A stretch of 17,178 nt of DNA from an uncultured Prolixibacteraceae bacterium (GTDB lineage Bacteria > Bacteroidota > Bacteroidia > Bacteroidales > Prolixibacteraceae), in the NCBI GenBank assembly GCA_964611525.1, contig CAZTAL010000160.1, positions 1 through 17,178 of the forward strand, given 5' to 3'. Below are positions 2 to 16,731 of the stretch, one piece after another. How positions within the stretch are numbered: position 1 is the first letter of the stretch; every line of letters starts with the position of its first letter. The notes under the pieces are model-generated. The model saw only the letters and a list, made by a program, of their open reading frames with translations, ran no database searches and was not told the origin of the DNA. Position numbers and translations under genes: made by a program.

Positions 2-538
2 CTATATTCTAGGTCTTCTTTTTTCAAGTTCCCTATCTAATAACATATTTAAAAAAGCTGTTGGTTGTAAAAAATAGTTTGCGTTATCATCAAGTTTCTC
101 TTTAATTAGAGTCAAGCCACCATTAGTATATGACTCCATGGTATTAATAAGCTGTTTTACTACTTCATCTTCTGACAACTCGCCTTTTTCAAGTGCAATT
201 AAATCAATATCAGTTTTCGCTATTAATGCACTAAAAATATATTCTTGTAGGTGAGTAAAATCTTTTCTGTCTAACCTGTTTTTACTCCCCCAATATTGAA
301 TATGATGACTAAAGTCTGTTTTCTTTTCACCCTGAGGAATTGGCGAAAACTCATCATTATATAGACCAAGAAAAAAAGCAAACATATATAGTTCGTAATT
401 TGTACTAAAATGTTTACCTAAACTAATTTTCTTTTCACCTTCAGCCCCATACTTTTGTGATAATGATTCAAATAAATCTTTGAATCTCTCACTGTATCGA
501 GGAATACGTGTTTTCCATTTATCAAACAAACTATTCAT
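2..538 (-). CDS. Hypothetical protein, N-terminal 178 aa only; the C-terminus lies beyond the left edge of the window. It is the last visible gene of the putative defence operon.
   Basis: ORF with ATG at 538..536, starting 2 nt after the stop of the upstream ATPase gene (541..543) on the same strand. No motif recognised. One R-x4-H (RKDFTH) is present, but that is not significant alone. Confidence 0.5.
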   Translation of the reverse strand: MNSLFDKWKTRIPRYSERFKDLFESLSQKYGAEGEKKISLGKHFSTNYELYMFAFFLGLYNDEFSPIPQGEKKTDFSHHIQYWGSKNRLDRKDFTHLQEYIFSALIAKTDIDLIALEKGELSEDEVVKQLINTMESYTNGGLTLIKEKLDDNANYFLQPTAFLNMLLDRELEKRRPRI

Positions 539-540
539 AG

Positions 541-2682
541 CTAAAGCCTGATTACATTAGTATTAATTGTACTTAATTTATTTTTATCGAATGGTCTTTC
601 TCTTTTTATCCAGAAAGCTTGATGTCTCTTGACATCATTAAATTCTGGTTTAATTGCCTGATTACCATCTTTATCTTTTACAATAAAATCATAAAATAGA
701 ATTATTCTTTGTTTACCGGTTTCATAAACCAAATTAAGGAAGTCTTTTGTTTTGGTTTCTCCAAATGATGATGTTGGTGCATCGAAAATCATAGGATAGT
801 TTTCATCATCTCTATTCTCAGAAGCTAATTCTGATATCGCAAACAATATAGCCATATGCATAGATGTTTCTAAAGATTGGTTTGGACTTGAAAACAGTTT
901 ATTATCCTCATGTAATTCAATATCAACATAAAACTGTTCACTCATTTTCTTTTTAATGAATACTATTTCACCAGTAAAATCATCTATATTTATCTTTTGG
1001 AATATAATATTTGATTTCTTTTGCAATTGATCTATAAATTCATTGTACTTCTTTTCTTTGGTATCTTTAAAAACTATTTCTATATCGCGTAATATTCTTC
1101 TTGTATTGATCAGAAAATTATTTGCGCTATTAATATCAATTTTATCTTTCTCATCATTTAGATTTTTAAGTATCTGTTCAATTTTCAGTAATTTAACTTT
1201 ATTCTCGTTTAATTCTCTGTTTATATTCTTACTATCTTTCTGCCAACCATTATAATTTTTTAATACATTAGAAAGTTTATCAGCACCGAGGGAAGAAGTT
1301 CCAATTATTCTATTTAGATCATTTTGTTCTTTTTCAAGTTTCTCATCCATTTCTTTTAATTCCTGTTTTCTTTTAGCTATAAAATCAAAAAAATCCGATA
1401 TCTCCTTTTTTTTTGATTTTAAACTTCCCAAGTTATCTTCATGAATAATACTTAAGTTGATTAATCGACTTAAATAGTCGTTTTCAAACAGTACTTTTTT
1501 CTGAGTTTCTTCTTTCAAATTAGGATTTTGGCTTTCAAGATATTGCGTTAATCTTTCTTCCATAAATTTCAGAGATTTCTCATCTAAATCCCTACCACAT
1601 ACTTTACAGAAGTTATCTTTTATCATTTCCTCCATATAGACTTTTGAAGGAACTCCGACCGGCAAAGGTATATAATCCTTTAGCTGTTCTTTAAGTTTTC
1701 TTTTCCCTTCCGCAATACCCGCCTGTTTATCAAATTCTTTTTGCAACTCTCTTTTCGTACTACTTAAATTTTCTATTTTTCCTGCAAATTCATTATGAAT
1801 GTTTTCAAAATTTAATAAGATCCATGATTCATCAAATAAATTTGTAGTATAATTCTCTACTACTCGCCTTTCAGTTATGGATATTTCTTCTTCAATTTTT
1901 TTAATTCTTCCTTTTACGGTATCAAATGCTTCTGCATTGTCAACAAATTTCTCAGCCTCTTGCAGATGCCTCTCGATTTTTCTCAAATGTTGTTCTGACG
2001 AATCAATAAAAATTTGAATCTTATTTTTTTGTTCTAATTGATATTTGATTTCTGCTTCAAGTCGGTTATATTCTCTTTGATTTTTTTGATTGTTTCGTGA
2101 ATCCTTATCTACTGCCTTCTCTGCTTCCGTTCTAAGATATTCCCCTTTCTTTGCGTACTTTTCGTAATATTTAGCGCTGGAAAATGAGTTTATCAAATTA
2201 CTTAAAGCGTCAACATTTTCAAAGATATTAAGTTCTGCTTCTCCTTTAAACATCGAATATCGCCTAATTTCATATGGGAAAATTCTATCTAAAAGCATGT
2301 AGCCATCAACTTGATCCCTCTCTCCGTCTTTGTTTTCCTCAATCCCTTCAACACTATAGTTTCTCGTCGAAATTTCACTATCGCTTTCTTTTGTTACAAG
2401 GAAGTATTTCGTAATAGTGATGTTTTCACCATACTGCTCTGCACTAATTAATACTCTCACTCTAAATTGACCACCGCTATAGCTTTCTTTTATCTTTTTT
2501 GCTGAAACTAAGGCTTCTAAGTTTTTATCATTTCCATTAAAAAGCCAAAATATTGCTTCAAAAAATTTTGTTTTCCCTTCGCCATTATCGCCTAATATGA
2601 TATTTAAACCGAGTTTCAAATCAAATTCATTAATATCATAGTAACATTGAAAATTTTCTAGAATTATCTTTTTAATAATCAT
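541..2682 (-). CDS. Coiled-coil ABC/SMC-type ATPase (RecF/SbcC/DndD-like, AAA_23-type N-terminus), 713 aa
   Basis: N-terminal Walker A GDNGEGKT (nt 2592..2569). There is a long K/E/L-rich central region typical of a coiled coil. At the C-terminus an ABC-like Walker-B/D-loop reads YPMIFDAPTSSFG (nt 792..760); compare the canonical hhhhDEPTSALD. The start ATG overlaps the stop of the upstream 76-aa gene (ATGA at 2679..2682). Confidence 0.8.
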   Translation of the reverse strand: MIIKKIILENFQCYYDINEFDLKLGLNIILGDNGEGKTKFFEAIFWLFNGNDKNLEALVSAKKIKESYSGGQFRVRVLISAEQYGENITITKYFLVTKESDSEISTRNYSVEGIEENKDGERDQVDGYMLLDRIFPYEIRRYSMFKGEAELNIFENVDALSNLINSFSSAKYYEKYAKKGEYLRTEAEKAVDKDSRNNQKNQREYNRLEAEIKYQLEQKNKIQIFIDSSEQHLRKIERHLQEAEKFVDNAEAFDTVKGRIKKIEEEISITERRVVENYTTNLFDESWILLNFENIHNEFAGKIENLSSTKRELQKEFDKQAGIAEGKRKLKEQLKDYIPLPVGVPSKVYMEEMIKDNFCKVCGRDLDEKSLKFMEERLTQYLESQNPNLKEETQKKVLFENDYLSRLINLSIIHEDNLGSLKSKKKEISDFFDFIAKRKQELKEMDEKLEKEQNDLNRIIGTSSLGADKLSNVLKNYNGWQKDSKNINRELNENKVKLLKIEQILKNLNDEKDKIDINSANNFLINTRRILRDIEIVFKDTKEKKYNEFIDQLQKKSNIIFQKINIDDFTGEIVFIKKKMSEQFYVDIELHEDNKLFSSPNQSLETSMHMAILFAISELASENRDDENYPMIFDAPTSSFGETKTKDFLNLVYETGKQRIILFYDFIVKDKDGNQAIKPEFNDVKRHQAFWIKRERPFDKNKLSTINTNVIRL

Positions 2683-2909
2683 ATGGCTGCTTCATTTAGA
2701 TACTGATTAATTATATTTCTTAAACCTGAGTCAGTAACTGAATTAGGTCCTTCCAAATTGTCCACAATCAGGGCTATGGCTTTAACGATAGGAATGTCAC
2801 TTATTAATGCATCATGAACAGTTTTCGGTAATAACTCCTTATCTAACTTATAATTACTTGCCAGTATTTCATGAGACAAAAAACTACATAAAATTTTATC
2901 CTTTCTCAT
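2679..2909 (-). CDS. Small hypothetical protein, 76 aa, sandwiched between the helicase and ATPase genes
   Basis: ATG at 2909..2907, 11 nt after the helicase stop. Its stop overlaps the ATPase start. No recognisable motif. The position is analogous to the small middle components of SMC-like defence systems, but that is inference. Confidence 0.5.
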   Translation of the reverse strand: MRKDKILCSFLSHEILASNYKLDKELLPKTVHDALISDIPIVKAIALIVDNLEGPNSVTDSGLRNIINQYLNEAAI

Positions 2910-2920
2910 AATACCTATAT

Positions 2921-5143
2921 TTATTGTTCTTCAAAATCATAAAGATTTAAATTATAATATTCTAAGATATTCTTTAATTCTTCATAAGTATCAATTTTAT
3001 TCATTGATAATGACGAGAAATCAACTATTCGTTCTAATTCTTTCTTAAATAGATTTCGTTCCATTTCAAAATTCTCTTGCTCCTTATCAATTTTAGGTAC
3101 TACAACTAAATCATGTATCGTAGAATGAACTTTATTTTTATGGAGTCTCAATACTCTGCCTCGTCTTTGAATAAATTGGCGTGGATTACCAGTACTAGCA
3201 CAAAAAATAGCTAATTCTGATCGTGGAACATCAACACCTTCATCCAAACATTTCATAGATGTAAGGACATGAATCTTTCCATGCTCAAAATCTTTTATAA
3301 CTTCACTTCTATTCTTAGTTCTTGCGGTATACTGTTTAACGAGAATGGATAAATCAATATCTCTTACTATTTTTGTGTACTCTCGGATCAGTTTTTCCTC
3401 ATTATCCTCTTCAATATATTCATCAGTCTTGGAATAATCAGGATCCTTACCCTCTGGTACGTAAATGAGCGTATATTTAATATTTCCTTTTCCCCTAAAT
3501 TCATTATTTAGGATTTCATTAAATATTGACTTTTTATTTCGTGCTTTGTGTATTATTCTTTTCCTCGCCAATAAAAGTGTTTCAACCTCCGGGCAGTCTT
3601 TATATTTACCAGTAGTTGAATCAATAAATTTCAGCAATTGGAAGGACTTTTGAATGTATTCATTAAGCTCATCATCATCTAAAGTAACAGTATGTGGAAA
3701 ATACTTGTATTTGCATAACCATCCCATTTTAAGAGCTTGTTTCATAGAGAAATTAAAAATATATGGTGCTTTATCATTGAAAAATTGATCAATTTTTATG
3801 TTACCTTCAATATCATATTTTCTTTCAGGAGTGGCTGACAAACCAATTCTTTTGTTCAAGTGTATTTTAGCAAGGAGTTTACTTATGCATGGTGCACCCA
3901 TGTTATGTAATTCATCAGCTATGAGGATTGTTTCTCTTGAGAACTGTTTAAAATGATTTTGAAATTTCTTTCGTACAAAAGAGGCATAAGTAATAATTAC
4001 AATGAAAGAAGCATTCACTAATTTATTTGCTGTATTAAAGAAGGATAACTCATCATTCCAATTCTCCTTTGAACTTATTTGGATAATATTTTTGAAATTA
4101 AATTTATAGCATTCCTTTTTCCATTGGTCAACTAAAGCTATAGTTGGAACCAGTATTACAGCTTTGTAATAATTTTGATCTTTGTACTCATTTAATAAAC
4201 AATTTAAAGATGTGATTGTCTTTCCTGTTCCTGTAGCCATTGCAAAAATGCCTCTTCTCCCGTTTTTCAACCATTTTTGATAAGCTTCTATTTGGTAGGG
4301 TCTTGGTCCATTCGGATATGGAAATTTTGGTTTCTGTTTCTCTTCTTTAACTTTTTTCTGAAAATCAGAGGCATATTTGAAAAAAATTTTTTTTATATAT
4401 GGAAGTCGGGAAAGTTTTTCATAAACATTTTTTTCATCTTCTACTAATTCATCTAACTGTTTATCTTTTCCGTTTTCTTCTATAACAGCAATAATTTGGT
4501 CCGGATTTAAATATACAAATCCTTCATCTTCCTTTGAGCATATTTTTTCAATGATTTTAGTATTATCTTTAACTTTTATCTTTTCAGAATTTTCTCCCCA
4601 GGAACGGGCTATTGAAAGACTTTCGCCATTATCAACCAATCCACGATAAGTAAAGTTACAACTTCCATTGAAATATACCTGATTGATTCCATCATTTAAA
4701 ATGCCCTGTTTGAAATGTGCTAAACGGTGTGGTTTAAGTTTTACTGGAATAATTATCAATCTGTTATGCCGTAATAAGTATTTTAAGCAATCAAAAAAAT
4801 GTTGATCACCTCTTTCAAGAATTTTTGCGAGTTCTTCTAACTCATTATTAATTATATATTTTATCTCCTCGTCCTGAACGTATGATTCTATTATGTCATC
4901 CGAAATCAGAAGTTTGTCTTTAATAGATAAGAAATGATTTGTGATAATTCTTAGAATACCACCATTTTGAATAAACTGTGCGAAACCGTAAGCCAGAGTT
5001 CTAATAGCATTTGAACTAAAATATCCAAGTTTTAAATCAATTTTTTTACATTCAGGTATCGTAAGCATAAAAAACTCTATCGGAAGATGGTTCCCGTCAG
5101 AACTATATTCTAAAGATTCAGAATATTTAATATTTGTAAGCAT
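2921..5143 (-). CDS. PLD-family (HKD) nuclease domain fused to an SF2 DExH/ResIII-type helicase, 740 aa
   Basis: N-terminal HKD motif HFKQGILNDGINQVYFNGSCN (nt 4717..4655), matching HxK(x)4D/N(x)6GSxN. Helicase motif I is AMATGTGKT (nt 4240..4217), motif Ia VLVPTIALVDQW, motif II ILIADELH, motif III GLSATP and motif VI QRRGRVLR. ATG at 5143..5141. Confidence 0.85.
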   Translation of the reverse strand: MLTNIKYSESLEYSSDGNHLPIEFFMLTIPECKKIDLKLGYFSSNAIRTLAYGFAQFIQNGGILRIITNHFLSIKDKLLISDDIIESYVQDEEIKYIINNELEELAKILERGDQHFFDCLKYLLRHNRLIIIPVKLKPHRLAHFKQGILNDGINQVYFNGSCNFTYRGLVDNGESLSIARSWGENSEKIKVKDNTKIIEKICSKEDEGFVYLNPDQIIAVIEENGKDKQLDELVEDEKNVYEKLSRLPYIKKIFFKYASDFQKKVKEEKQKPKFPYPNGPRPYQIEAYQKWLKNGRRGIFAMATGTGKTITSLNCLLNEYKDQNYYKAVILVPTIALVDQWKKECYKFNFKNIIQISSKENWNDELSFFNTANKLVNASFIVIITYASFVRKKFQNHFKQFSRETILIADELHNMGAPCISKLLAKIHLNKRIGLSATPERKYDIEGNIKIDQFFNDKAPYIFNFSMKQALKMGWLCKYKYFPHTVTLDDDELNEYIQKSFQLLKFIDSTTGKYKDCPEVETLLLARKRIIHKARNKKSIFNEILNNEFRGKGNIKYTLIYVPEGKDPDYSKTDEYIEEDNEEKLIREYTKIVRDIDLSILVKQYTARTKNRSEVIKDFEHGKIHVLTSMKCLDEGVDVPRSELAIFCASTGNPRQFIQRRGRVLRLHKNKVHSTIHDLVVVPKIDKEQENFEMERNLFKKELERIVDFSSLSMNKIDTYEELKNILEYYNLNLYDFEEQ

Positions 5144-5699
5144 TAATTCATTTAGTTTTATTTTTTGTTAAAAAAAGTATTCATTGGTGATGATAAAGTT
5201 AAAAATAAAAAACTGGAAGTGAAAATGACTTATTTACATAAATTTTACCTATAAATCTGATCTAGCAATTTAGGGTGCTATAACATTCACAACAACTAAT
5301 CACCCGGAAAACTTGTTATAAACAACCAGCAAAGACAATATTGGAACTTTAAAAGCAACATTCTTTGGTATTTAACGTTTACTATCACTGATAATCCCTT
5401 TCTTTAAAAAAGTAAAATATTAAAAGCTCTTTCTTTAATATTAGCTGCAACTTGTGGTTATATTCCGTTATTAAATAACTTGGTCATCCATTTATTTTAC
5501 TGTCGGTTGAAATTAATACCCCAGTCTTCGTTTTTCTCAAATAATCATCACTGAATTAATTCTCTATTGATTCACACTATTGTCACAGCTATTATTCAAT
5601 AAATCTAGGTTTCTTCGGATTGCCATTTGAAATTTTTCCACAATATATATAAAACGCATATTAAAAAGGACAAATTAAAAGTGGATACATAGAGACAAT

Positions 5700-6030
5700 T
5701 ACAGTTAGATAGCGACCCAAAAAAGGAACCGTCTCAGACAGCCCTTTTGGGGGTTAATCATCGAAGCTGATCTGCTGTTCGCATTCACGGATCCTGTCAT
5801 TGACCACGTTCTGCAAAGTATCCAAAACAGTGTTTATAACCAGTGAATGACTTGTCTTGAATTCCTGTCCGGTTAAGTCCTGGCACGCCGGTTAAATTTT
5901 GGTGGCCACCATTTGAGCCACGACGGATACGCGCAAGGGTGGATTCAGCCGTGATAACTAATTAATAGAGTTCATATATCCTTGCGCATTCCGGAGGGCG
6001 ATTAATAACTTTGCCGTGGTTTAAACGGAT
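5700..6030. other. GC-rich non-coding island inside an AT-rich intergenic region. It is either a degraded gene or mobile-element remnant, or a structured RNA.
   Basis: Composition jumps relative to the flanks. Short stop-bounded open frames lacking start codons occur on both strands, for example a 55-codon minus-strand frame of roughly 5790..5955. There is an 8-bp GC-rich inverted repeat, gcgcaagg at 5931..5938 and ccttgcgc at 5980..5987. A weak hairpin plus T-run lies at about 6013..6040, just before the promoter region of the 6109 gene. Confidence 0.3.
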
Positions 6031-6108
6031 TTTTCTTTTAAATAAAATATAAAAGCAATTATTCCACTTTAACAATTACCTTTAGAAAAGTTTTAATAAA
6101 AAAGATAA

Positions 6109-7590
6109 ATGCAGGTAAAAGTAAACAGAAAGGATGTCAAATTTTGTCCGGATGCATCCAGGATAATAGCGCGGTTTCTTTACACGGGAGATGAAAAAGC
6201 GCTTAATACCATCCGCTTGGTACTTGGCATGTCCAATAATATGGTATTACAAGCTTTAAGCCCCTTGCTGAGAGACTACTCGCTTCGTCACAGAAATATC
6301 TCAAAGATTTTTGAAAGGCATTTTAATAAAATCGCATATCTTTTAAAACAGTTAAATGTTGAACCCGAGTCACTCGACATATCCCAAAAAATACTTATCG
6401 GCTCTTATTTTACCATGGAGTATTCGATTGAATCAGCCGCTTTTTTTAACCCCTCGATTGTTGAACACCCTGATCAGGCGGAGATAGGTGCGGATGAAAA
6501 AAGAGTTATATTAAGTTTCAGAGCTACCGGTGAAGGACATATTTCATCCATAATTTTCAGAACAGGGGTATTGGATAAAAACAATAATCTTTCTATAGAA
6601 CCTGTCGGGAAGATGCTCGAAGAAGCAGTGCATATCCGTCGGCACTTATATGATAAATCATCCTTTAAAAGTAAGCTTAATGAAATGAAGGATATTCATC
6701 CAATTATCCCTTACGGTTTAATTATGGATAAGTTAAAAGATACATTTACTTATGGCGAACTTCGGGATTGTATTAAAGAAGCAAGAAAGTCATTGCATCT
6801 TACTGACGAGAAAGAAGTTTTGTTTAATCAGATTACCTGGCTGGCTTCGTCGCATTACGAACTTGAATTTTCTCTGGATACCAACATTTCTGAACGGGTA
6901 ATTTTTCCTGTATCAGCAAACGAAAAAAATGGAATTGAGGATGCCCGTTTCGTAAGATTCGTTGATGATAACGGGAAAATTAGATATTATGCAACCTATA
7001 CAGCATATGACGGTACCACTATATTACCAAAGATGCTTGATACTCCGGATTTTTATCATTTTCGGATATTGCCTATTCATGGTGAAATTGCTCAAAACAA
7101 AGGGATGGCACTTTTCCCGCGTAAAGTGAACAGAAAATACGCAATGCTATGCAGATTGGATGGCTTCAATAATTACATTGCTTATTCTGATAATATTTCG
7201 ATTTGGCGCAGAGCTACATTACTGCAACAACCAAAGTTTCCGTGGGAATTTATTCAAATCGGTAATTGTGGTTCTCCTATCGAAACGCCTGAAGGCTGGT
7301 TAGTTATAACCCACGGGGTTGGTCCGATGCGTGAATATAGTCTCGGGGCATCATTGTTTGACCTCCAAAATCCCGAAAAAGAGATCGGCAGGTTGAAATC
7401 ACCCTTATTATTCCCTAATACCAAAGAGAGGGAAGGTTATGTTCCCAACGTGGTTTATTCCTGCGGCTCCATGATTCATAATGGCGATTTAATAATTCCC
7501 TACGCCATGTCTGATTATGCATCAACTTATGCAACAGTTGATTTACGAGAACTATTGAATGAGTTGAAAAACTCTAAATATGAAAAATGA
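6109..7590 (+). CDS. GH130-family protein (beta-mannoside phosphorylase/hydrolase-like, DUF377 fold) with N-terminal extension and internal insertion, 493 aa
   Basis: The C-terminal two thirds match the GH130 pattern: FFNPSIVEH, GIEDARF (EDPRI-like), RYYATYTAYDG, NKGMALFPRKVNRKYAMLCR, NYIAYSDNISIW, IGNCGSPIETPEGWLVITHGV, SLFDLQNPEKEI, GYVPNVVYSCG, and the C-terminal motif PYAMSD, which corresponds to the YGAAD motif of characterised GH130 proteins. ATG at 6109 sits in an A-rich context. Confidence 0.75.
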   Translation: MQVKVNRKDVKFCPDASRIIARFLYTGDEKALNTIRLVLGMSNNMVLQALSPLLRDYSLRHRNISKIFERHFNKIAYLLKQLNVEPESLDISQKILIGSYFTMEYSIESAAFFNPSIVEHPDQAEIGADEKRVILSFRATGEGHISSIIFRTGVLDKNNNLSIEPVGKMLEEAVHIRRHLYDKSSFKSKLNEMKDIHPIIPYGLIMDKLKDTFTYGELRDCIKEARKSLHLTDEKEVLFNQITWLASSHYELEFSLDTNISERVIFPVSANEKNGIEDARFVRFVDDNGKIRYYATYTAYDGTTILPKMLDTPDFYHFRILPIHGEIAQNKGMALFPRKVNRKYAMLCRLDGFNNYIAYSDNISIWRRATLLQQPKFPWEFIQIGNCGSPIETPEGWLVITHGVGPMREYSLGASLFDLQNPEKEIGRLKSPLLFPNTKEREGYVPNVVYSCGSMIHNGDLIIPYAMSDYASTYATVDLRELLNELKNSKYEK

Positions 7591-8231
7591 GGAATCGTAT
7601 AGAAACAGAAAAGCGACAGTGGCTTGAAATTGGAGCAGTTATTTTAACTGGTTTAATGAAATATGTTTTTATGGACTGGCTGGAACTGCGCATTTTTTAT
7701 ATTGGTGTTGCCTGTTTATTCTGGACGATTTACATTTATAAAAGTTATCAGGATAATAAGCTGATTCTGCAACATTGGGGATTTCGAAAAGATTATTTTA
7801 AGAATGTTTTCCTGTTTCTCATGCCTTTTGCTCTGGTGATTATAGCAGCAATTCTTTGGTATGGTATTTCAATCAAAAAAATCACCCTTAACTGGCATTT
7901 AATTCCTGTATTTGTTTTTTATCCGCTATGGGGAATCATTCAGCAATTTTTAATAATGGCACTTGTTGCCGGAAATTTGCAGTCATTATCAGCAGTAAAA
8001 CTCAGGAAATACCAAATTATCCTGTTGATTTCAGTGTTATTTGCACTGGTTCACTATCCAAGTTTACCATTAATGTTATTTGTTTTTTTAATGGAGTTTT
8101 TATTTACCAGCGCTTATTTTAGATGGAGAAACCTTTGGCCTTTGGGCCTTTACCATGGGTGGGTGGCCAGTTTGCTTTTGTTTTTTGTGCTGGGTCGTGA
8201 TTTATGGAATGAACTATGGAAGGTATTCTAA
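7587..8231 (+). CDS. Polytopic membrane protein, 214 aa, with weak CPBP/Abi-like (CAAX-protease-fold) resemblance. It is translationally coupled to the GH130-like gene.
   Basis: ATGA overlap with the upstream stop (7587..7590). There are at least 6 hydrophobic helices. FALVH (FxxxH-like, H at 8052..8054) and LYHGW are present. The position where CPBP motif 1 (EExxxR) would lie reads IIQQF (7941..7946). The family assignment is tentative. Confidence 0.55.
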   Translation: MRNRIETEKRQWLEIGAVILTGLMKYVFMDWLELRIFYIGVACLFWTIYIYKSYQDNKLILQHWGFRKDYFKNVFLFLMPFALVIIAAILWYGISIKKITLNWHLIPVFVFYPLWGIIQQFLIMALVAGNLQSLSAVKLRKYQIILLISVLFALVHYPSLPLMLFVFLMEFLFTSAYFRWRNLWPLGLYHGWVASLLLFFVLGRDLWNELWKVF

Positions 8232-8294
8232 GAGATTTACCCTATTATAAGGTCGAATTCATATGTAGTTAATTCACTCAAATATGCTATAAGA

Positions 8295-9020
8295 TTAAAT
8301 ATGAAAAAACCGTTTCAGGTCGGTAGCTTTTTTCAATCGGTAATGAATATAAAATAAAACTATGGAGATAAATACAACAGAAACAATCACAATCAGACTC
8401 CATCCAAATTTAAGGGTGTTGCCGGAATAAAGTGCAATTATTCCATCGGCGCAAATGCTTAACAAACCCGCAGCAATAAGCGAATAGGCGATAATATTCA
8501 ACCCTTTTTGTTTTGATCTTCTTATCATAAAAGAGAGAATAAAAACAGTTACATACGCTGCCAATAACATTGGCAAACCCAGGTTCAGCTCGAAACTAGT
8601 TGCTTTGGTATAAATATCTAACAGGATTAAAAGAACAGCAGTTGATAGAAAACTAATAGCCGTAAACAGTATAACTCTTTTGTGTGAGAAAGTGTACAGA
8701 GTAATATTAATAAATATAATCAACCCGACTGTTGCCGGATACTTTGACCATAGGATGGTCTGATTTTCAACCAGATTGATTACCAAAGTCATAATTATAC
8801 CTGAGATAAGGATTATACCCGAGATTTTCCAGAAAATCTTTCTTTTCTGCAGCCCTGTTAGTTTTTGAAAATCTGTTAGCAGTTTTTCTTCCTGCTGTAG
8901 TTTTCGGGATTTTAGATAGGCTAAATTATTAATGTTCTCATTTATCAGGGGTTCACCGCATAGAGAACAAAAATTAGCATTTTCTTCCAATTCTACACCG
9001 CAATGTGGACATTGTCTCAT
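8295..9020 (-). CDS. Membrane protein with N-terminal zinc-ribbon (CPHCG...CSLCG), 241 aa
   Basis: ATG at 9020..9018, 6 nt downstream of the acyltransferase stop. A CxxC-x13-CxxC motif is followed by 5 or 6 hydrophobic helices. Confidence 0.65.
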   Translation of the reverse strand: MRQCPHCGVELEENANFCSLCGEPLINENINNLAYLKSRKLQQEEKLLTDFQKLTGLQKRKIFWKISGIILISGIIMTLVINLVENQTILWSKYPATVGLIIFINITLYTFSHKRVILFTAISFLSTAVLLILLDIYTKATSFELNLGLPMLLAAYVTVFILSFMIRRSKQKGLNIIAYSLIAAGLLSICADGIIALYSGNTLKFGWSLIVIVSVVFISIVLFYIHYRLKKATDLKRFFHI

Positions 9021-9026
9021 TTTTCT

Positions 9027-10376
9027 TTATTTATTTGTTTCCAATTCAACAGCAATGTTCTGATCATTCATAAATTGAAGGAATTTTTCTTCAAATTTTC
9101 TCGAACTGGTTATATTGGCAAAACTTAGCACCAATTTATCTCCAAAACCAATTACACCACAACTTATTTTCAACATTTTATTGGGGGGTGGTGGCGTCAT
9201 AATAAAATGATCAACGAATTTTCCTGTTTCAGCCGGCAGTTCTATTTTCCCCAGGTTCGTAATAACCCCGCTGTATTGGTTTGTGCCTAAGGAATAGTAT
9301 TTCAACCGCAGAATTAAACTTTTCAGGAATAGCGGTATTCCACGGACATATAGTTTTTTTTCACTGCCGACGTTTCTTGAAATATTCTTATTGATCAACT
9401 TTTTATCTGTTTCTAGTTTTATCTGATGATAAACTGTTTTGATTATTTCATCAAAAGTATAATATCCGAGCCGCAGATCAATTTCAGGCATAACGAATAA
9501 TGAAAAATTGCGCATGGTTTTCGACGGAAAAATTTGTCGTAAATTAATGGGGACCTGAATACGAAGTATTTTATTCTTTTTGTATTTGCTCAAATTATTC
9601 AGATTTTTATATATTTCCTGCAAGGCATACAGGTAAACCGATACAAGATAAATAGTGAGGCTTACCCCTTTCCCGTTGGCAACCTTTTTCATTTGTTTCA
9701 ACGAAATGATAACGTTCATCAATGTCAGGCGGGGCTTGGCTTTTAGGGGATAAGGAAGGTGGAACGCTTTCGATCTTTTCACTATTGGAGGAATCTCTTC
9801 CTTGAAATAACGTTTATAAGCATCCTCATACTCCTCTTCTGAAACAGGGCCAATCGGATCGTTCAAATGATATTCGTGGGGAACTTCAGCCCCACATTCC
9901 AAAGAATATCTTACCAGAATAGATTTGAAAAACTCAAATGCTCCGCTGCCATCGGTTAAAATATGGGAAAATTCAACGCTTATGCTGTTGTTCTTCAGCA
10001 GGATTCGTATTAACAATCCTCCTTTGGAAAATTTCCTACAGCACTGTTTATCATCCACTTCAATGGAAATGTGCTTCGGCAGATATTCAAGGTAATACCA
10101 GAAAAACCCTTCTAAGAGTTGTACCCGGTAATAGGGAAACTGTTTTTCTGCAAACAAAACAGCTTTTCTTAAAGGTTTTATTTTAACGGGTTGTTTTAAT
10201 ATCGCCGACAATCTGAATACAGCTGTAACCTCTTTCGTGATAATGGCTGGAAATATTTTTGCTGCATTATCAAGAGTTATCCAAAATTTTTCGGGTTCTG
10301 ATGTAATATGGCTGCTTTTATTATACAAAGAAATATGCTTTTGTTGATGTAAAGAAATACAAATTTTAAAATACAA
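9027..10376 (-). CDS. HxxxDG-motif acyltransferase (WS/DGAT-, PapA5- and condensation-domain-like), about 449 aa
   Basis: FSHILTDGSGAF, with HILTDG at nt 9965..9948, lies about 138 aa from the start. That is the same position as HHAMVDGVAG in WS/DGAT enzymes. The only in-frame start after the upstream stop is TTG at 10376, and there is no ATG in the first 200 codons, so the exact start is uncertain. Confidence 0.7.
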   Translation of the reverse strand: MYFKICISLHQQKHISLYNKSSHITSEPEKFWITLDNAAKIFPAIITKEVTAVFRLSAILKQPVKIKPLRKAVLFAEKQFPYYRVQLLEGFFWYYLEYLPKHISIEVDDKQCCRKFSKGGLLIRILLKNNSISVEFSHILTDGSGAFEFFKSILVRYSLECGAEVPHEYHLNDPIGPVSEEEYEDAYKRYFKEEIPPIVKRSKAFHLPYPLKAKPRLTLMNVIISLKQMKKVANGKGVSLTIYLVSVYLYALQEIYKNLNNLSKYKKNKILRIQVPINLRQIFPSKTMRNFSLFVMPEIDLRLGYYTFDEIIKTVYHQIKLETDKKLINKNISRNVGSEKKLYVRGIPLFLKSLILRLKYYSLGTNQYSGVITNLGKIELPAETGKFVDHFIMTPPPPNKMLKISCGVIGFGDKLVLSFANITSSRKFEEKFLQFMNDQNIAVELETNK

Positions 10377-10508
10377 ATTTATTAATTATCATGGAATTAT
10401 ACGCTTCTGGTCTAACTGGTTTTAAAACTAAATGTGTGAATTATGTAACTCTTATTCGGAATTGTGAAAAATATGCGTAACTTGCACGGAATTAATAAAT
10501 TTATTACA

Positions 10509-10700
10509 ATGAACAAAGGAACAGTAAAATTTTACAATGAAACCAAAGAGTTTGGATTCATTAAAGACAACAATTCATCTAAAGAGTATTTTGTGCATTC
10601 ATCTGGTTTAAAAGATAATATCAGGGAAAATGATGAAGTAACTTTTGATCTGGAAGAAGGGAAAAAGGGATTAAATGCAGTGAATGTTAAACTTGCATAG
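10509..10700 (+). CDS. Cold-shock protein (CspA family), 63 aa
   Basis: MNKGTVKFYNETKEFGFIKD is the classic RNP1/RNP2 cold-shock domain. ATG is at 10509. The ORF-track TTG at 10464 would add 15 non-conserved residues and is less likely. A strong terminator follows. Confidence 0.9.
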   Translation: MNKGTVKFYNETKEFGFIKDNNSSKEYFVHSSGLKDNIRENDEVTFDLEEGKKGLNAVNVKLA

Positions 10701-10730
10701 TTTTGAGAAAATAATCAATTATAATATTGT

Positions 10731-10753
10731 CCCGCTGTTGGCGGGATTTTTTT
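10731..10753 (+). terminator. Rho-independent terminator of csp. Its T-run overlaps the stop codon of the convergent GT4 gene.
   Basis: Stem cccgc (10731..10735), loop tgttg, stem gcggg (10741..10745), then a ttttttt (10747..10753). Confidence 0.7.
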
Positions 10754-12998
10754 ATACTATTTTTAAGTCCGATTCATGATATTCTTCGTAAGCCTGCAGC
10801 ACCGTTAAATGAGAAATTAAGTAGGCCAGCGAACTTTCAGCCCCCTGGTTTCGGTTTACACCATAACTTTCGAATCCATCACAACATCCTTTAGTTTCAA
10901 AATCATACAAACTCATCCGCAAATCATTTTCACCCAGAAACCACAAAAAAGAGGTGTATAGTTTATTGAGGTAATCCTTGTCTTTGGTTACATGAAATGC
11001 CTGATGATACATTAACACCATAGCCATTGCATCAATAGGTTGCTGTGCAAAAACAGATCGTTCACCCTCTTTTTTATACCATTTTTCATTTCCAATAATC
11101 GAAAGGTAATTATCAATTAAAGTATGGTTTGTCAAAAAATTCATCGATTCGATTGCCGTTTTTGTAATTTTATTGTCGTTCAGTATTTCTGCTGAATGTA
11201 AAAGTGCCAGAGGTAAAATGCCATTATCATAAGCCAGTAAAGATTCGAACCATTTCCAATCAGTTGTCAGGTTTTCCATATATTGTTTTATTAATACATT
11301 CGCGAGATTTCTCAATCTTTCAGTCATGGAATCGTCTGACGGATTGCTTTTCAGATAGTAACAAATCCCAATCATTGTATTGGCAATCCCCCGGATAGAT
11401 TTCAATTTTTCAAAATTGGGAGCTGCATTAAAGAATACAAGTTTACCGGTTTGATAATAAGCATCATTTGGAGCATTTCCCAATAAATAGCCCAGAGCCC
11501 AAATCGTCCGGCCAAACGAATCTTCAGAGCCAATATCATCCAAAAAATTGCGGCTAAAACTCAGAAAATTACGGAAAGTCCCGTCTGCATTTTGCATGTA
11601 ATGAATATAGCTTAAATATATAGGAGACAATTCAAGAGCCCGTCTGTCTTTCATCTGCCGGAAAGCCATTAAAACCATCAGTAAAGCCCGCGAATTATCA
11701 TCCAGGCAATATCCTTCTTTTAAATTGGGGATACCAAATTTTGCATGTTGTATAATACCGGTGTCATCAGTCAAACGATTAATGTGTGCAAGCGAAAAGG
11801 GAGGAAGGATGAGTAAATCAGGTTCCGTTTCTTTCCGGAAAATAACCGGACTTTCTTCCTTCACTATTTTTTCGGCAAGTGTAACGTATTTTTCACCGGT
11901 TTTTGGCCAGGTAATTTTTCCCCCATATTCACCGGCTTTATTTTTTAGCTTATTGAGTTCTTCAGGTTTATCCAGGAGTTCAGTTAATATTTTCGCCAGC
12001 TCCGCGAAATCCTTAAAATTAAAGAGCCTACCCCTTCCTTTAGCCAGTAGCTCTGCGGCATGCCAGTAAGGTGTTGAAAGAACAGCCGCACCCACTCCAA
12101 CGGCATACGAAAGGGTTCCGCTGGTAATCTGGGCTTCATTCAAATAAGGTGTGATGTAAATATCACAGGCATATAGATATTTGAACAAATCCTGTTCGTC
12201 AATAAATTCGTTAAGAAATATTACATGATTTTCAAGCTGAAGATTTTTTACCAAACGCCATAAGAAAATTCGGTATTCTTCGCCGGAATGCCGTAACACA
12301 TTTGGGTGGGTTTTCCCCAGAACAATATAAATAACTTCGGGATATTTTTTCACTACTTCGGGCAATGCTTTTATAACTGTTTCAATACCCTTGTTGCGAC
12401 CAACAAAACCAAAAGTTAATAATACTTTTTTGTTTTGGAGTTTAAACTCTTTTTTTGATTTTTCGGGACTAAAATGAATATCCGGAACGCCATGTTCAAT
12501 CAGGACAATTTTTTCTCTTTGCACATCGTAAATACTTACCAAAAACTCAATCGCTTTATGGCTCATCACAACAATTTTATGGGCCATTTTACAAATTTCT
12601 TTCAAAATTGCTTTTTCGTTGTACGAAGGTGTTTTGAGAATTGTATGAAGTGTAACAATGAATGGAATTTCAAGCCGGTGAAGCAAAGGAAGTATATATA
12701 TCCCGCTTTGTCCCCCAAATATGCCAAATTCGTGCTGAAGGATACAAACATCGGCACCGCTAAGATTAATGTATTTCACCGCTTTTAAATAATCTTCCTG
12801 ATAATCTTGTCTGATGGTTAATTTAACTTCTTGCGGGTATTTATAAGTAAGATCGTTGTCATTTATTCCAACCACAAAACCTTCATGCTTGTGTTCATTT
12901 CGTTCGTTGGGCGTTAACATCGACCTGAACAGGTTGTTTGTAAAGGTTCCAATGCCGCATTCGCGGGGTGGATATGTAGCGATATAAGTGATTTTCAC
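10752..12998 (-). CDS. GT4 glycosyltransferase fused to a C-terminal (alpha/alpha)6-barrel glycoside-hydrolase-like domain, 748 aa
   Basis: The N-terminus MKITYIATYPPRECGIGTFT and the block GFVGRNKGIETVIKAL...LGKTHPN...ITPYLNEAQITSGTLSYAVGVGAAVLSTP are GT4/GT-B-like. The C-terminal roughly 370 aa is rich in aromatic residues and contains QGAESSLAY. It resembles six-hairpin glycosidases (GH63/GDE-like), but I am not certain of that. GTG at 12998 is the first start after an in-frame stop. Confidence 0.75.
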   Translation of the reverse strand: MKITYIATYPPRECGIGTFTNNLFRSMLTPNERNEHKHEGFVVGINDNDLTYKYPQEVKLTIRQDYQEDYLKAVKYINLSGADVCILQHEFGIFGGQSGIYILPLLHRLEIPFIVTLHTILKTPSYNEKAILKEICKMAHKIVVMSHKAIEFLVSIYDVQREKIVLIEHGVPDIHFSPEKSKKEFKLQNKKVLLTFGFVGRNKGIETVIKALPEVVKKYPEVIYIVLGKTHPNVLRHSGEEYRIFLWRLVKNLQLENHVIFLNEFIDEQDLFKYLYACDIYITPYLNEAQITSGTLSYAVGVGAAVLSTPYWHAAELLAKGRGRLFNFKDFAELAKILTELLDKPEELNKLKNKAGEYGGKITWPKTGEKYVTLAEKIVKEESPVIFRKETEPDLLILPPFSLAHINRLTDDTGIIQHAKFGIPNLKEGYCLDDNSRALLMVLMAFRQMKDRRALELSPIYLSYIHYMQNADGTFRNFLSFSRNFLDDIGSEDSFGRTIWALGYLLGNAPNDAYYQTGKLVFFNAAPNFEKLKSIRGIANTMIGICYYLKSNPSDDSMTERLRNLANVLIKQYMENLTTDWKWFESLLAYDNGILPLALLHSAEILNDNKITKTAIESMNFLTNHTLIDNYLSIIGNEKWYKKEGERSVFAQQPIDAMAMVLMYHQAFHVTKDKDYLNKLYTSFLWFLGENDLRMSLYDFETKGCCDGFESYGVNRNQGAESSLAYLISHLTVLQAYEEYHESDLKIV

Positions 12999-13059
12999 CT
13001 TTTGGTTATTGTGTTTTAGAAAGTAACTTTACTCTCAGAAATTCTCGTTAAATCAGGAA

Positions 13060-13194
13060 TTATATTAAACTTGAATTACTTTTACGGGACTTTTTTGCAG
13101 CTTTATCGAATCTTTTTTCTTTCAGGCTCCTTACTGCTTCCTTTTTCGTGTTCTTCCTCTTTTTCCCTTCTTTTTTTTCTTTCCCTTTTGTCAT
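13060..13194 (-). CDS. Possible 44-aa lysine-rich small protein, 24 nt downstream of floA. It is not in the supplied ORF track.
   Basis: The reading runs ATG at 13194..13192, then MTKGKEKKEGKKRKNTKKEAVRSLKEKRFDKAAKKSRKSNSSLI, then TAA. On the plus strand this is an extreme polypyrimidine tract. The frame could be open by chance through low complexity. Confidence 0.25.
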   Translation of the reverse strand: MTKGKEKKEGKKRKNTKKEAVRSLKEKRFDKAAKKSRKSNSSLI

Positions 13195-13218
13195 GATATT
13201 TGTTTTAAAAGTTAAGTA

Positions 13219-14178
13219 TTATTCTCCCGCTATGGAATCACGCATAGAGGTATCTGCCATTATGTTTTTATATTTCATATAATCCATTACGCCGAGGTTG
13301 CCTTTATCTAAAGCTTCAGCAATGGCTAGCGGCACTTTTACCTCAGCTTCAATGACCTTGGCCCTGGCTTCCTGTGCCTTAGCTTTCATCTCCTGTTCCA
13401 TGGCTATAGCCATAGCACGGCGCTCTTCAGCTTTGGCCTGAGCAATATTTTTATCAGCTTCGGCCTGATCCATTTGCAATGCGGCTCCAATATTTTTCCC
13501 TATGTCTATATCGGCAATATCGATCGAAAGTATTTCAAAAGCAGTGCCTGCATCAAGTCCTTTTTCAAGCACTACACGTGAAATAAAATCAGGATTTTCC
13601 AACACGGTTTTATGCGAGTGGGATGATCCTATTGATGAAACAATACCTTCACCAACGCGTGCAAGAACGGTTTCTTCACCTGCTCCGCCAACAAGTTGCT
13701 TAATATTTGCCCTTACAGTAACTCTTGCTTTTGCAATCAACTGTATGCCGTCTTTTGAAACAGCGGTAACAGGCGGTGTATTGATCACTTTTGGGTTTAC
13801 CGACATTTGAACAGCTTCAAATACATTGCGCCCCGCCAGATCAATGGCTGTGCTCACCTTAAATGATAGATCGATGTTCGCTTTTGATGCTGATACCAGA
13901 GCATGAACAACACTTGCAACATGTCCCCCCGCAAGATAGTGCGCTTCAAGATCGTCGCGATTAAGATGGACCCCAGCTTTCGTGCCTTCTATGAGGGCAC
14001 GGACGATAACTCCCGGAGGAACTTTACGGAAACGCATCAGGAATAGTTGCAGAAGAGATATTCTGACACCTGAAACAAGAGCTGAAAACCATAATCCAAT
14101 TGGGATTAAATAAAGGATGATAAAAAATAATACAATTATCGCTATTATTAATCCCCATGTACCGATTGATTCAATCAT
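13219..14178 (-). CDS. floA: Flotillin-like protein FloA (SPFH/band-7 family, YqfA-type), 319 aa
   Basis: An N-terminal transmembrane helix is followed by [61 protein letters not shown] and [42 protein letters not shown]. These are collinear with Bacillus FloA. The local GC content is visibly higher than in the rest of the window. Confidence 0.9.
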
Positions 14179-14676
14179 TTTTTATTTATTTATAGGTTCT
14201 ACAATTATTCATTTGATAATCTTTAAGTATTTTATTTTGGCATTATGATCTATGAAACCACCAGTTGATTGGGTCTTTCAGTATTATCTGTTTCTAAATA
14301 ATCTTCCGTCATAGTCAAATTTCCATTAAATATTTTAGTATAAAAAATTTGATTATCTCTTTGACCTCGTTCGACTGGACTAACAAATCGTGGCCTATGG
14401 AAAACTTTTTTTGATTCAATTGCTATTATAATATTCCTTGTGTTATTAATAACGATTTAACTTAAAAGATGCATAGGAAATGTTTCTGTCAGTCCATCAT
14501 TTTCCGAGAATAAGTTAAACAATCCAATAAGGATTTAATTTAAAGATTTCGTATTTTTTTTAAATTTTATAATTGATAATCAAAGATATTGAAAGTATTC
14601 AATTTGTAACCACAAAAATAAAGCAATTTGTATTTTTTATTTATTTTATTTTTAAATGTTGCTAGTTCTCTGATGT

Positions 14677-15447: not shown

Positions 15448-15454
15448 AGTAATA

Positions 15455-16168: not shown

Positions 16169-16494
16169 TTCGTCTTCCCTGATAATTTTTGCAATCCATT
16201 TGACGGCAAATCCAGGTAGTTTATTTAGTAATTTTGAATTACTTTCGTTAATAATCTTTGCAATGTCGATATACTTTATGTCTTTGTTAAATTTTATGAT
16301 TTCTTACAATTTATCATTAACCTTTTTTTATTGATTTATCTTTAAAAATTGATGTCAAATTTAATCTTTGAACGAGTTCTTGTTTCACTTCATCAATGTG
16401 ACTTCTTTTAAAGGCAGACAAATTTAAGTTTTTAATTTGGATTTTGTCCACCATACAATCTTTAAACAAACAAATAAAAATAAAATATCCCCAA

Positions 16495-16719: not shown

Positions 16720-16731
16720 TTGACTTGAATA

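What the first reader, a model, noticed from the sequence alone, without database searches (positions are those of the whole stretch)
2..5143. Candidate undescribed defence operon: PLD-nuclease/SF2-helicase fusion, 76-aa protein, coiled-coil ABC/SMC-like ATPase and a fourth, partial gene
Four co-directional genes are packed with an 11-nt gap, a 4-nt ATGA overlap and a 2-nt gap, which implies one transcript. The content is a nuclease domain (HKD motif intact), a translocase with all SF2 motifs intact, and an SMC/RecF-like ATPase with a long coiled coil. That combination is typical of anti-phage systems such as Lamassu (LmuA-LmuC-LmuB), ABC-three-component systems and Dnd/Dpt restriction modules. 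The order here, effector then small protein then SMC-like ATPase, echoes Lamassu. I do not recognise a full ResIII helicase fused to a PLD domain as the effector, followed by a fourth gene, in any named system. The 76-aa and 178+-aa proteins have no motif I can identify. The block is also the most AT-rich part of the window, which is consistent with horizontal acquisition.
Basis: partly seen in the sequence, partly recalled or inferred. Interest (0 to 1): 0.8.

Follow-up and report, generated by a model that had tools for sequence, protein, structure and literature searches.

The report
Known PbeABCD phosphorothioate defence operon
The four genes are real and form one operon, but they are a member of the already named PbeABCD anti-virus system, here from a Bacteroidota lineage in which the system sits beside Ssp-type rather than Dnd-type DNA-sulfur-modification genes.

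Summary
Four co-directional minus-strand genes (740, 76, 713 and 178 aa) are packed with an 11-nt gap, an ATGA overlap and a 2-nt gap. One correction: the fourth gene is complete, with its stop at 2-4.

Two things are less ordinary. PbeB, PbeC and PbeD are very divergent from the canonical proteins, and the Cys motif is CxxC rather than CxC. Contigs that continue past the window's end carry sspD/sspC where they reach far enough. So do ten of eleven related loci with enough flank, with a swappable 2-5-gene cassette in between. No dndCDEA is present. I found no paper describing this Ssp-Pbe pairing.

Verdict: new member of a known kind, low-to-moderate interest.

The parts
2921..5143 (-). pbeA: N-terminal single-HKD (PLD-type) nuclease domain fused to an SF2 (ResIII/DEAD + Helicase_C) translocase, 740 aa
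   Evidence: PADLOC PbeA PDLC02706: E 2.5e-291, residues 12-730 against model positions 2-722 of 722. NCBIfam TIGR04095 dnd_restrict_1: E 4.9e-119, 398 bits, below the 600-bit cut-off and covering only 280-732. Pfam ResIII, DEAD and Helicase_C hit; PLDc_2 is weak at E 3.8e-4. HKD and helicase motifs are conserved in 11 homologues, including canonical Ruegeria and Halobaculum PbeA. BLASTP to Ruegeria PbeA: 30% identity, E 2.5e-94.
2679..2909 (-). pbeB: 76-aa small protein in the PbeB position, function unknown
   Evidence: No hit in PADLOC, Pfam or NCBIfam. Assigned by position and size only: canonical loci carry 63- and 64-aa genes in the same slot. hhalign finds no similarity to those. Within this clade it is conserved at 58-82% identity.
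541..2682 (-). [quoted passage not shown]
2..538 (-). pbeD: DndE-like tandem ribbon-helix-helix DNA-binding protein with a C-terminal helical extension, 178 aa, complete
5144..6108 (.). 965-bp non-coding spacer upstream of pbeA; presumably holds the operon promoter, which was not identified
   Evidence: No ORF of 50 aa or more. Promoter-like matches are no more frequent than in shuffled sequence. No Rfam match. The GC-richer island at 5720-6030 is not more structured than shuffles, z -0.97.

Best explanation
The block is a pbeABCD-type restriction module, also known as the CxC ABC ATPase-DndE-anchored conflict system. It belongs to a Bacteroidota subclade.

Proposed working:
- PbeC is a Rad50-like ABC ATPase, thought to dimerise through a zinc-hook Cys pair at the tip of its coiled coil. 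Together with PbeD, a DndE-like tandem-RHH DNA binder, it forms the DNA-scanning and site-recognition unit.
- PbeA is the effector. Its SF2 motor translocates on DNA. Its single HKD half-site would need two PbeA copies to meet before it could cut.
- PbeB is a small adaptor or brake.
- In this lineage the self-mark is most likely the single-strand phosphorothioate written by an adjacent SspABCD module, not by DndCDEA. DNA lacking the mark is blocked or cut.

What is shown here: gene identities, folds, motifs, operon structure and the Ssp neighbourhood.
What is taken from the haloarchaeal system (Xiong 2019): all four genes are needed, protection depends on phosphorothioate (PT), and viral replication halts.
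What is inferred: coupling to Ssp, the division of labour among the four proteins, and whether DNA is actually cut.

My confidence is about 0.9 that this is a Pbe-type module, about 0.6 that it is functionally coupled to Ssp phosphorothioation, and about 0.4 for the detailed mechanism.
For: Identity of the four genes:
- PbeA matches the PADLOC model full length, E 2.5e-291, and TIGR04095 dnd_restrict_1 at E 4.9e-119.
- PbeC hits PbeC models, has a Rad50-like head and a helical insert of about 400 residues with invariant C359/C362 at its midpoint.
- Canonical loci share the architecture: 694-63-683-143 aa beside dndCDEA on a Ruegeria plasmid, and 683-64-656-142 aa on a Halobaculum plasmid.
- The literature definition is HKD-SF2, then a small protein, then a CxC ABC ATPase, then a DndE cognate (PMC10853773). 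Genetics come from PMC6459918.

Ssp link:
- Contigs that continue past the window's end and are 99.9-100% identical to it continue into sspD, and one into sspC (PADLOC SspD 3.6e-91, SspC 3.2e-100).
- Ten further loci with close homologues also carry ssp genes: L009, L011, L013, L014/15, L016, L017, L018, L019, L020 and L026. These hold sspD or fuller sets up to sspB/C/D with or without sspA.
- PADLOC confirms them in L017 and L019: SspB 1.3e-113, SspC 1524 bits, SspD 3.7e-95, SspA 3.5e-161.
Against: - Sequence support is weak or absent for three of the four genes. PbeB has no hit anywhere. PbeD reaches only E 0.066 against PADLOC PbeD. PbeC's best single hit is an LmuB model.
- The Cys motif is C-K-V-C, not the literal C-x-C seen in the canonical PbeC proteins (CIC).
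- No ssp or dnd gene lies inside the window. The Ssp link rests on other contigs, and adjacency does not prove coupling.
- In L027 the Ssp module is decayed while pbeABCD looks intact.
- Xiong 2019 saw no DNA cleavage, which sits uneasily with an intact HKD site.
- Aravind's group questions whether Pbe is PT-dependent in general.
Confidence: 0.8

Rival explanations
1. A Pbe-type module that acts independently of any DNA modification, as an abortive-infection or suicide device. PbeCD senses an invader feature, or PbeB is removed by a viral factor, and this unleashes the PbeA HKD nuclease on any DNA, including the host's. This is the alternative model in PMC10853773. The neighbouring Ssp genes would then simply share a defence island.
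For: - 320 of 553 PbeAC pairs had no dndCD within 10 kb (PMC6459918).
- PMC10853773 argues for decoupling and for a regulatory small protein.
- L027 keeps pbeABCD beside a decayed ssp module.
- The HKD catalytic residues are conserved in all homologues examined.
Against: - Ten of eleven related loci with enough flank, plus the window strain's own continuations where they reach far enough, keep ssp genes within about 1-5 kb of pbe, despite changes in orientation and in the intervening cassette.
- sspA sits immediately upstream of pbeA on the same strand in L014, L016, L017 and L026.
- The characterised archaeal system lost protection when PT was abolished.
Confidence: 0.15
2. A Lamassu-family system (LmuA effector, LmuC, LmuB SMC-like ATPase), with an extra gene.
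For: - The best PADLOC hit of the 713-aa protein is an LmuB model, E 1.4e-25, covering 1-661.
- LmuB proteins can carry CxxC zinc hooks (PMC12663957).
- The order effector, small protein, ATPase resembles lmuA-lmuC-lmuB.
Against: - PbeA has no LmuA hit and PbeB has no LmuC hit.
- PbeA is a full-length PbeA match.
- The fourth gene has the DndE fold, which is not a Lamassu component.
- Walker B is hhhhDA, not the hhhhDD or hhhhD[QSTE] reported for LmuB.
Confidence: 0.03
3. A genuinely undescribed four-gene defence system.
For: - PbeB, PbeC and PbeD are too divergent for confident automatic naming.
- NCBIfam scores fall below the curated cut-offs, so standard annotation would call the genes helicase, hypothetical, AAA ATPase and hypothetical.
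Against: - The architecture, the PbeA identity, the DndE fold of the fourth gene and the PT-gene neighbourhood all match the published system.
Confidence: 0.02

Closest known systems
DndCDEA-PbeABCD of Haloterrigena jeotgali A29 (Xiong et al. 2019, PMC6459918)
   Same: Four co-transcribed genes in the same order and size classes: a helicase-fusion protein of about 700 aa, a tiny protein, a coiled-coil ATPase of about 650-710 aa, and a small protein of about 150-180 aa. PbeA is homologous (about 29-30% identity to the canonical Ruegeria and Halobaculum PbeA used here as stand-ins; the H. jeotgali sequences were not compared). The system lies next to phosphorothioate-modification genes.
   Different: The partner modification genes are sspBCD(A), which write single-strand PT using an ORC/Cdc6-type ATPase (SspC) and a DUF4007 protein (SspB), rather than dndCDEA. 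PbeB, PbeC and PbeD are barely or not at all recognisable by sequence. PbeD is about 30 residues longer. No experiments exist for this clade.
CxC ABC ATPase-DndE-anchored conflict systems (described in Rakesh et al. 2024, PMC10853773, which cites Krishnan et al. 2020; the 2020 paper was not held and was not read)
   Same: [quoted passage not shown] All four parts are found here.
   Different: The Cys motif is C-x-x-C (CKVC), conserved throughout this clade, rather than C-x-C (CIC in the two canonical PbeC proteins checked). The small protein looks conserved here, at 58-82% identity within the clade, whereas that family's small protein is described as rapidly evolving and mostly disordered. That paper lists DndDE-type PT modules or cytosine methylases as partners. 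I found no mention of Ssp partners in the sections read.
Lamassu (LmuA-LmuC-LmuB / DdmABC)
   Same: A coiled-coil Rad50/SbcC-like ATPase, sometimes with a CxxC hook, working with a small protein and a nuclease effector. The gene order is similar.
   Different: There is no LmuA C-terminal domain and no LmuC homology. The effector carries its own SF2 motor. There is an extra DndE-like DNA binder. The system is linked to DNA-modification genes.
SspABCD-SspE and SspABCD-SspFGH
   Same: The same modification module is present in related loci (SspA/B/C/D confirmed by PADLOC). A restriction partner sits next to sspD.
   Different: The partner here is pbeABCD, plus a variable DUF262-kinase, DUF262-SIR2 or other cassette. 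Neither SspE (DUF262-DUF1524) nor SspFGH is found: none of the proteins scanned against PADLOC, including several cassette proteins, hit SspE/F/G/H.

Membership tests
PbeABCD / CxC ABC ATPase-DndE system | PbeA: an HKD (PLD-superfamily) nuclease domain fused to an SF2 helicase | tested here: met
   PADLOC PbeA E 2.5e-291, full length. Motifs HxK-x5-D...GSxN, GTGKT, DELH, SAT and QRRGRxxR are present and conserved. TIGR04095 E 4.9e-119, though below the curated cut-off.
PbeABCD / CxC ABC ATPase-DndE system | A small-protein gene (about 60-80 aa) between pbeA and pbeC | tested here: met
   A 76-aa ORF lies 11 nt after pbeA and overlaps pbeC by ATGA. Canonical loci have 63- and 64-aa genes in the same slot. 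The feature is met by position and size only, with no sequence similarity. That lack of similarity is expected for a fast-evolving protein.
PbeABCD / CxC ABC ATPase-DndE system | PbeC: an ABC ATPase of the DndD-sister clade with a coiled-coil insert of about 400 residues | tested here: met
PbeABCD / CxC ABC ATPase-DndE system | [quoted passage not shown] | tested here: inconclusive
   A two-Cys motif is present exactly mid-protein (C359, C362 of 713). It is invariant in 30 homologues and lies in the connector between the two helical arms. However, its spacing is CxxC (CKVC), whereas canonical PbeC has CIC. Zinc binding and the apex geometry were not tested.
PbeABCD / CxC ABC ATPase-DndE system | PbeD: a DndE cognate (two RHH units) encoded directly after the ATPase | tested here: met
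PbeABCD / CxC ABC ATPase-DndE system | Adjacent DNA-modification module (dndCDEA in the type system; methylases in others) | tested here: inconclusive
   No dnd genes and no DNA methylase were identified among the genes scanned in the window. Contigs that continue past the window's end and are 99.9-100% identical to it reach sspD, and one reaches sspC. Ten of eleven related loci with enough flank carry ssp genes. A PT module is therefore adjacent, but it is of the Ssp type, not the Dnd type.
PbeABCD / CxC ABC ATPase-DndE system | PT-dependent antiviral activity requiring all four genes | not testable with these tools
   This needs cloning, plaque assays and PT analytics. It is known only for H. 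jeotgali (PMC6459918).
Lamassu | LmuA effector with an LmuA C-terminal domain, and an LmuC partner | tested here: not met
   The 740-aa protein has no LmuA hit and the 76-aa protein has no LmuC hit in PADLOC, even at E up to 10 for the small protein.
Lamassu | LmuB SMC-like ATPase | tested here: inconclusive
DndFGH / SspFGH / SspE restriction modules | Homologues of DndF/G/H, SspF/G/H or SspE | tested here: not met
   None of the four window proteins hits these PADLOC models.
Type I / Type III restriction-modification | A Res/HsdR-like motor-nuclease together with Mod/HsdM (and HsdS) genes | tested here: not met
   Only weak ResIII-domain-level hits to REase_I, mREase_IV and type IIG models, E 1e-9 to 1e-13. 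No DNA methyltransferase or specificity gene lies next to the operon; the only methyltransferase-domain ORF in the window, at 14677-15522, is 9.5 kb away.

The most novel reading that the evidence does not exclude
In Bacteroidota, Pbe-type restriction modules are the missing partners of 'orphan' SspBCD single-strand phosphorothioation systems. About 84% of sspBCD modules lack sspE or sspFGH (PMC8092258), and 58% of pbeAC pairs lack dndCD (PMC6459918). An Ssp-Pbe supersystem would therefore be a previously unreported PT defence pairing. It also carries, in the sspE position, a hot-swappable sensor-effector cassette: a DUF262 protein with a Ser/Thr kinase, a DUF262 protein with SIR2, a deoxyribosyltransferase-like protein with an unknown partner, or others. 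Two cassette variants already coexist behind identical pbeCD sequence in the sampled population.
Probability: 0.35. Interest if true: 0.55.

Novelty: new member of a known kind. Interest (0 to 1): 0.3.

Why it matters
For the window itself, the main value is correct annotation. Standard pipelines would label these genes helicase, hypothetical, AAA ATPase and hypothetical, because the NCBIfam scores fall below the curated cut-offs and PbeB and PbeD miss the PADLOC models. A divergent Pbe clade of this kind is therefore easy to mistake for something new.

The wider point is the consistent Ssp-Pbe adjacency in Bacteroidota. If it is functional, it would do three things:
- Extend Pbe restriction from double-strand Dnd marks to single-strand Ssp marks.
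- Help explain why most sspBCD and most pbeAC loci look orphaned.
- Offer isolates (Aquirufa regiilacus, Confluentibacter flavum) in which to test the disputed question of whether Pbe reads phosphorothioate and whether its HKD nuclease cuts DNA.

Tried and rejected
- PbeB has no hit in PADLOC at E up to 10, nor in Pfam or NCBIfam at the thresholds used (E up to 0.01 and 1). hhalign to the canonical small proteins found nothing. The word-index search returned only 10 close homologues.
- Rfam found nothing at gathering threshold over the whole window, nor at E up to 1 over 5100-6150. The GC-richer island upstream of pbeA folds no better than shuffled sequence (z -0.97). The promoter scan is below shuffle expectation. 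I found no regulatory element.
- The genome-contig scan with PbeA returned only 6 loci, two of which are cut at contig ends. Wider context came from exact look-ups of PbeD and PbeC homologues instead.
- Krishnan et al. 2020, the original CxC ABC description, is not held in the library. The definition of the CxC clade was therefore taken second-hand from PMC10853773.
- Literature searches for an Ssp-Pbe pairing found no description. This is absence from the searched library, not proof of absence.
- The right flank of the window (GH130, CAAX protease, glycosyltransferase, FloA and others) contains no dnd, ssp or DNA-methylase gene among those scanned, so I rejected the idea that the modification partner lies in the window.
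Full report
OBSERVATION

The four minus-strand ORFs exist exactly as described: 2921-5143 (740 aa), 2679-2909 (76 aa), 541-2682 (713 aa) and 2-538 (178 aa). The junctions were read from the sequence:
- TAA, 11 nt, then ATG.
- An ATGA stop/start overlap.
- TAG, 2 nt, then ATG.

One correction is needed. The fourth gene is complete, because its TAG stop lies at positions 2-4. The window ends one base after that stop.

The block has 29.6% GC, against 36.7% for 6109-14200 and 31.1% for 14201-17178. It is therefore the most AT-rich part of the window, though not by much at the right-hand end. The window corresponds to JGI metagenome contig MLSed_10002610.

WHAT THE GENES ARE

Gene 1 (740 aa)
- It matches PADLOC's PbeA model PDLC02706 from end to end (E 2.5e-291, model positions 2-722 of 722).
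- It matches NCBIfam TIGR04095, 'DNA phosphorothioation system restriction enzyme', at E 4.9e-119. The score of 398 bits is below the 600-bit cut-off and covers only the helicase part.
- Its N-terminus carries a single HKD motif, H143-x-K145-x5-D151 followed by G160-S-x-N163.
- Its C-terminal two thirds carry a full set of SF2 motifs.
- All of these motifs are conserved in 11 homologues, including canonical PbeA from a Ruegeria and a Halobaculum plasmid.

Gene 4 (178 aa)
- Sequence hits are only marginal: TIGR04062 dnd_assoc_4 at E 8.8e-4, PADLOC PbeD at E 0.066, and faint Pfam PF27807.
- An AlphaFold2 (AF2) model built on 39 homologues (pLDDT 80.8, pTM 0.80) shows two strand-helix-helix units followed by C-terminal helices.
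- Gene 4 is therefore a DndE cognate.

Gene 3 (713 aa)
- It has Walker A (GDNGEGKT, K37) and a Walker B of the form hhhhDAP (D634).
- It hits seven PADLOC PbeC models (E 1.2e-16 to 8.8e-5), although one LmuB model scores better at 1.4e-25.
- Its AF2 model (pLDDT 77.7) has split ABC half-heads at 1-146 and 572-712. Two helical arms span 157-332 and 403-564.
- A connector between the arms holds C359-K-V-C362. Both cysteines are invariant in 30 homologues.
- The helical insert of about 400 residues fits what PMC10853773 gives for the DndD/CxC clade, and not the 800-1000 residues of SMC proteins.

Gene 2 (76 aa)
- It has no detectable relatives outside its own clade.
- It sits in the slot where canonical loci have a 63- or 64-aa gene.

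COMPARISON WITH THE NAMED SYSTEM

Xiong et al. 2019 (PMC6459918) defined pbeABCD as follows:
- It is a co-transcribed four-gene cassette next to dndCDEA.
- All four genes are needed for about 10^4-fold protection against virus SNJ1.
- Protection depends on phosphorothioate (PT).
- Viral replication halts without visible DNA degradation.

Rakesh et al. 2024 (PMC10853773) re-annotated the same system:
- PbeA is an HKD endoDNase fused to an SF2 helicase.
- PbeB is a fast-evolving small protein.
- PbeC is a CxC-type ABC ATPase with a zinc hook at the coiled-coil apex.
- PbeD is a DndE cognate.

That is the architecture found here, part for part. I fetched two canonical loci for direct comparison:
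- Ruegeria plasmid NZ_CP045388 carries dndC-dndD-dndE-dndA, two intervening genes, and then genes of 694, 63, 683 and 143 aa. The first is annotated 'DNA phosphorothioation system restriction enzyme' and the last 'DNA phosphorothioation-associated protein 4'.
- A Halobaculum plasmid carries genes of 683, 64, 656 and 142 aa, with two hypothetical genes and then methyltransferases downstream.

That condition is met.

HOW THIS COPY DIFFERS

1. Divergence
- PbeA is 30% identical to Ruegeria PbeA (E 2.5e-94).
- PbeC is barely detectable by BLASTP (E 4.6e-4).
- PbeD is detectable only by profile or fold comparison, and PbeB not at all.

2. The Cys motif
- It is CxxC (CKVC) throughout this clade. The two canonical PbeC proteins have a literal CxC (CIC).
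- I score that defining feature as inconclusive rather than met.

3. The modification partner
- The window holds no dnd or ssp gene, and no DNA methylase was identified among the genes scanned.
- Other contigs are 99.9-100% identical to the window over the shared sequence and continue beyond its end.
- L002 continues into a Ser/Thr kinase, a DUF262/GmrSD_N protein and sspD.
- L003 continues into three unknown genes, then sspD and sspC (PADLOC SspD 3.6e-91, SspC 3.2e-100).
- I looked up close PbeD or PbeC homologues with long contigs and found nine loci: L013, L014/15, L016, L017, L018, L019, L020, L026 and L027. Eight of them carry ssp genes within a few kb (sspD alone in L016, up to sspB-sspC-sspD with or without sspA in others), in varying orientation.
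- PADLOC confirms SspB, SspC and SspD in L019 and SspA in L017.
- The ninth, L027, carries a decayed ssp remnant.
- Two Prolixibacteraceae MAG loci (L009, L011) also have sspD convergent with pbe.
- None of these loci has dndCDEA.

4. The operon is a mosaic
- PbeA is closest to Prolixibacteraceae MAGs (60-76% identity).
- PbeB, PbeC and PbeD are only 34-39% identical to the Draconibacterium MAG operon (L007), the one with all four genes intact. They are 50-75% identical to another set of Bacteroidota loci.

LITERATURE ON THE Ssp LINK

Searches found 12 papers that hold 'PbeABCD' and 12 that hold both 'SspABCD' and 'PbeA'. Those I opened list dndFGH, pbeABCD, sspE and sspFGH as separate partners, and none describes Ssp paired with Pbe.

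Two published 'orphan' statistics are relevant:
- 83.9% of 2,678 sspBCD modules have neither sspE nor sspFGH (PMC8092258).
- 320 of 553 pbeAC pairs have no dndCD within 10 kb (PMC6459918).

The loci seen here would account for some of both groups. This is a lead, not a demonstrated novelty. The original 2020 ABC-ATPase survey could not be read.

MECHANISM

The explanation I commit to:
- SspABCD marks host DNA with single-strand PT.
- PbeC, presumably dimerised through its Cys-pair hook, works with the DndE-like PbeD to load on and scan DNA, and reads whether the mark is present.
- On unmarked DNA they license PbeA.
- PbeA's SF2 motor translocates. Its single HKD half-site would require two PbeA molecules to come together before cutting, as in other single-HKD nucleases (general knowledge of the PLD superfamily).
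- PbeB acts as an adaptor or brake.

The basis for each step:
- Shown here: identities, folds, motif integrity, operon packing and the neighbourhood.
- Borrowed from the archaeal system: the four-gene requirement, PT dependence and the replication block.
- Inferred: coupling to Ssp, the division of labour, and cleavage. Xiong saw no cleavage, whereas the conserved HKD site argues that cleavage occurs.

RIVALS

- A modification-independent suicide mode, as Aravind's group proposes, remains possible (about 0.15). L027, with decayed ssp but intact pbe, favours it. The persistent adjacency to ssp, and sspA lying immediately upstream of pbeA in four loci, argue against it.
- A wholly new system is refuted (about 0.02).

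VERDICT

The block is a new and divergent member of a known kind, the PbeABCD / CxC-ABC-DndE system.

Interest is low to moderate (0.3). It rests almost entirely on the Ssp-Pbe adjacency outside the window and on the variable cassette, which deserve a systematic count and one cloning experiment.

Noticed in passing
L002 6139-8196; L003 1875-4795; also L013, L014, L016-L020 and L026, between sspD and the pbe operon: A variable 2-5-gene cassette occupies the 'sspE position'. The variants seen are: (a) a DUF262/GmrSD_N protein (NsnA-like) plus a Ser/Thr kinase, in L002, L018, L019, L020 and L026; (b) a DUF262 protein plus a ThsA-like SIR2, in L013; (c) a nucleoside-deoxyribosyltransferase-like protein plus an unknown protein of about 220 aa, in L014, L017 and L026; (d) three unannotated genes, in L003 and L016. 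These look like SspE-type sensors split from alternative effectors.
   Followed up: partly
window position 1; L002 vs L003; L004, L005, L006 and L025: The window's contig ends one base after the pbeD stop. At exactly that point, two population variants diverge, although they are 100% identical through pbeC and pbeD. The kinase/DUF262 cassette is in L002, L004, L005 and L006. The three-gene cassette is in L003 and L025. The two variants meet again at sspD, at 93.5% nucleotide identity. The assembly break therefore marks a cassette-swap junction.
   Followed up: yes
window 2-5143 compared with L007, L008 and L013-L016: The operon is a mosaic. PbeA is 60% identical to the Draconibacterium and Mariniphaga MAG proteins, while PbeB, PbeC and PbeD are only 34-39% identical to the Draconibacterium MAG operon (L007). 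Against another Bacteroidota set the pattern reverses: PbeA 52-55%, PbeB 58-61%, PbeC 50-57% and PbeD 74-75%. This suggests recombination between pbeA and pbeBCD. PbeD is unusually conserved, at 72-87% identity across the 120 listed hits (728 in all).
   Followed up: partly
L009 10001-12253: In a Prolixibacteraceae MAG, pbeA is cut off at about residue 367 and directly abuts a convergent sspD (85% identical to L003 SspD). This looks like a deletion that removed the rest of pbeA, pbeBCD and the cassette.
   Followed up: no
L027 1-12674 (Chryseobacterium sp. R2A-55): pbeABCD appears intact, but the neighbouring ssp module is decayed. sspB is followed by a 224-aa sspC fragment and no sspD. Unrelated genes (an AAA_18 kinase-like protein, HNH_4, a methyltransferase/HIT fusion) are inserted. 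This could be a Pbe module that has lost, or changed, its modification partner.
   Followed up: no
window 5720-6030, minus strand: The 965-bp spacer upstream of pbeA contains a GC-richer island. It holds an ORF remnant ending in ...RIRECEQQISFDD*, followed by a terminator-like hairpin at 5744-5726. There is no Rfam match, and the folding z-score is -0.97. It is probably a decayed gene end and marks the boundary of the inserted block.
   Followed up: partly
L016 10549-16762 (Confluentibacter flavum): Immediately downstream of pbeD lie a hipBA-like toxin-antitoxin set, HTH regulators and a tyrosine integrase. This is consistent with the Ssp-Pbe block travelling on an integrative element or defence island.
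   Followed up: no
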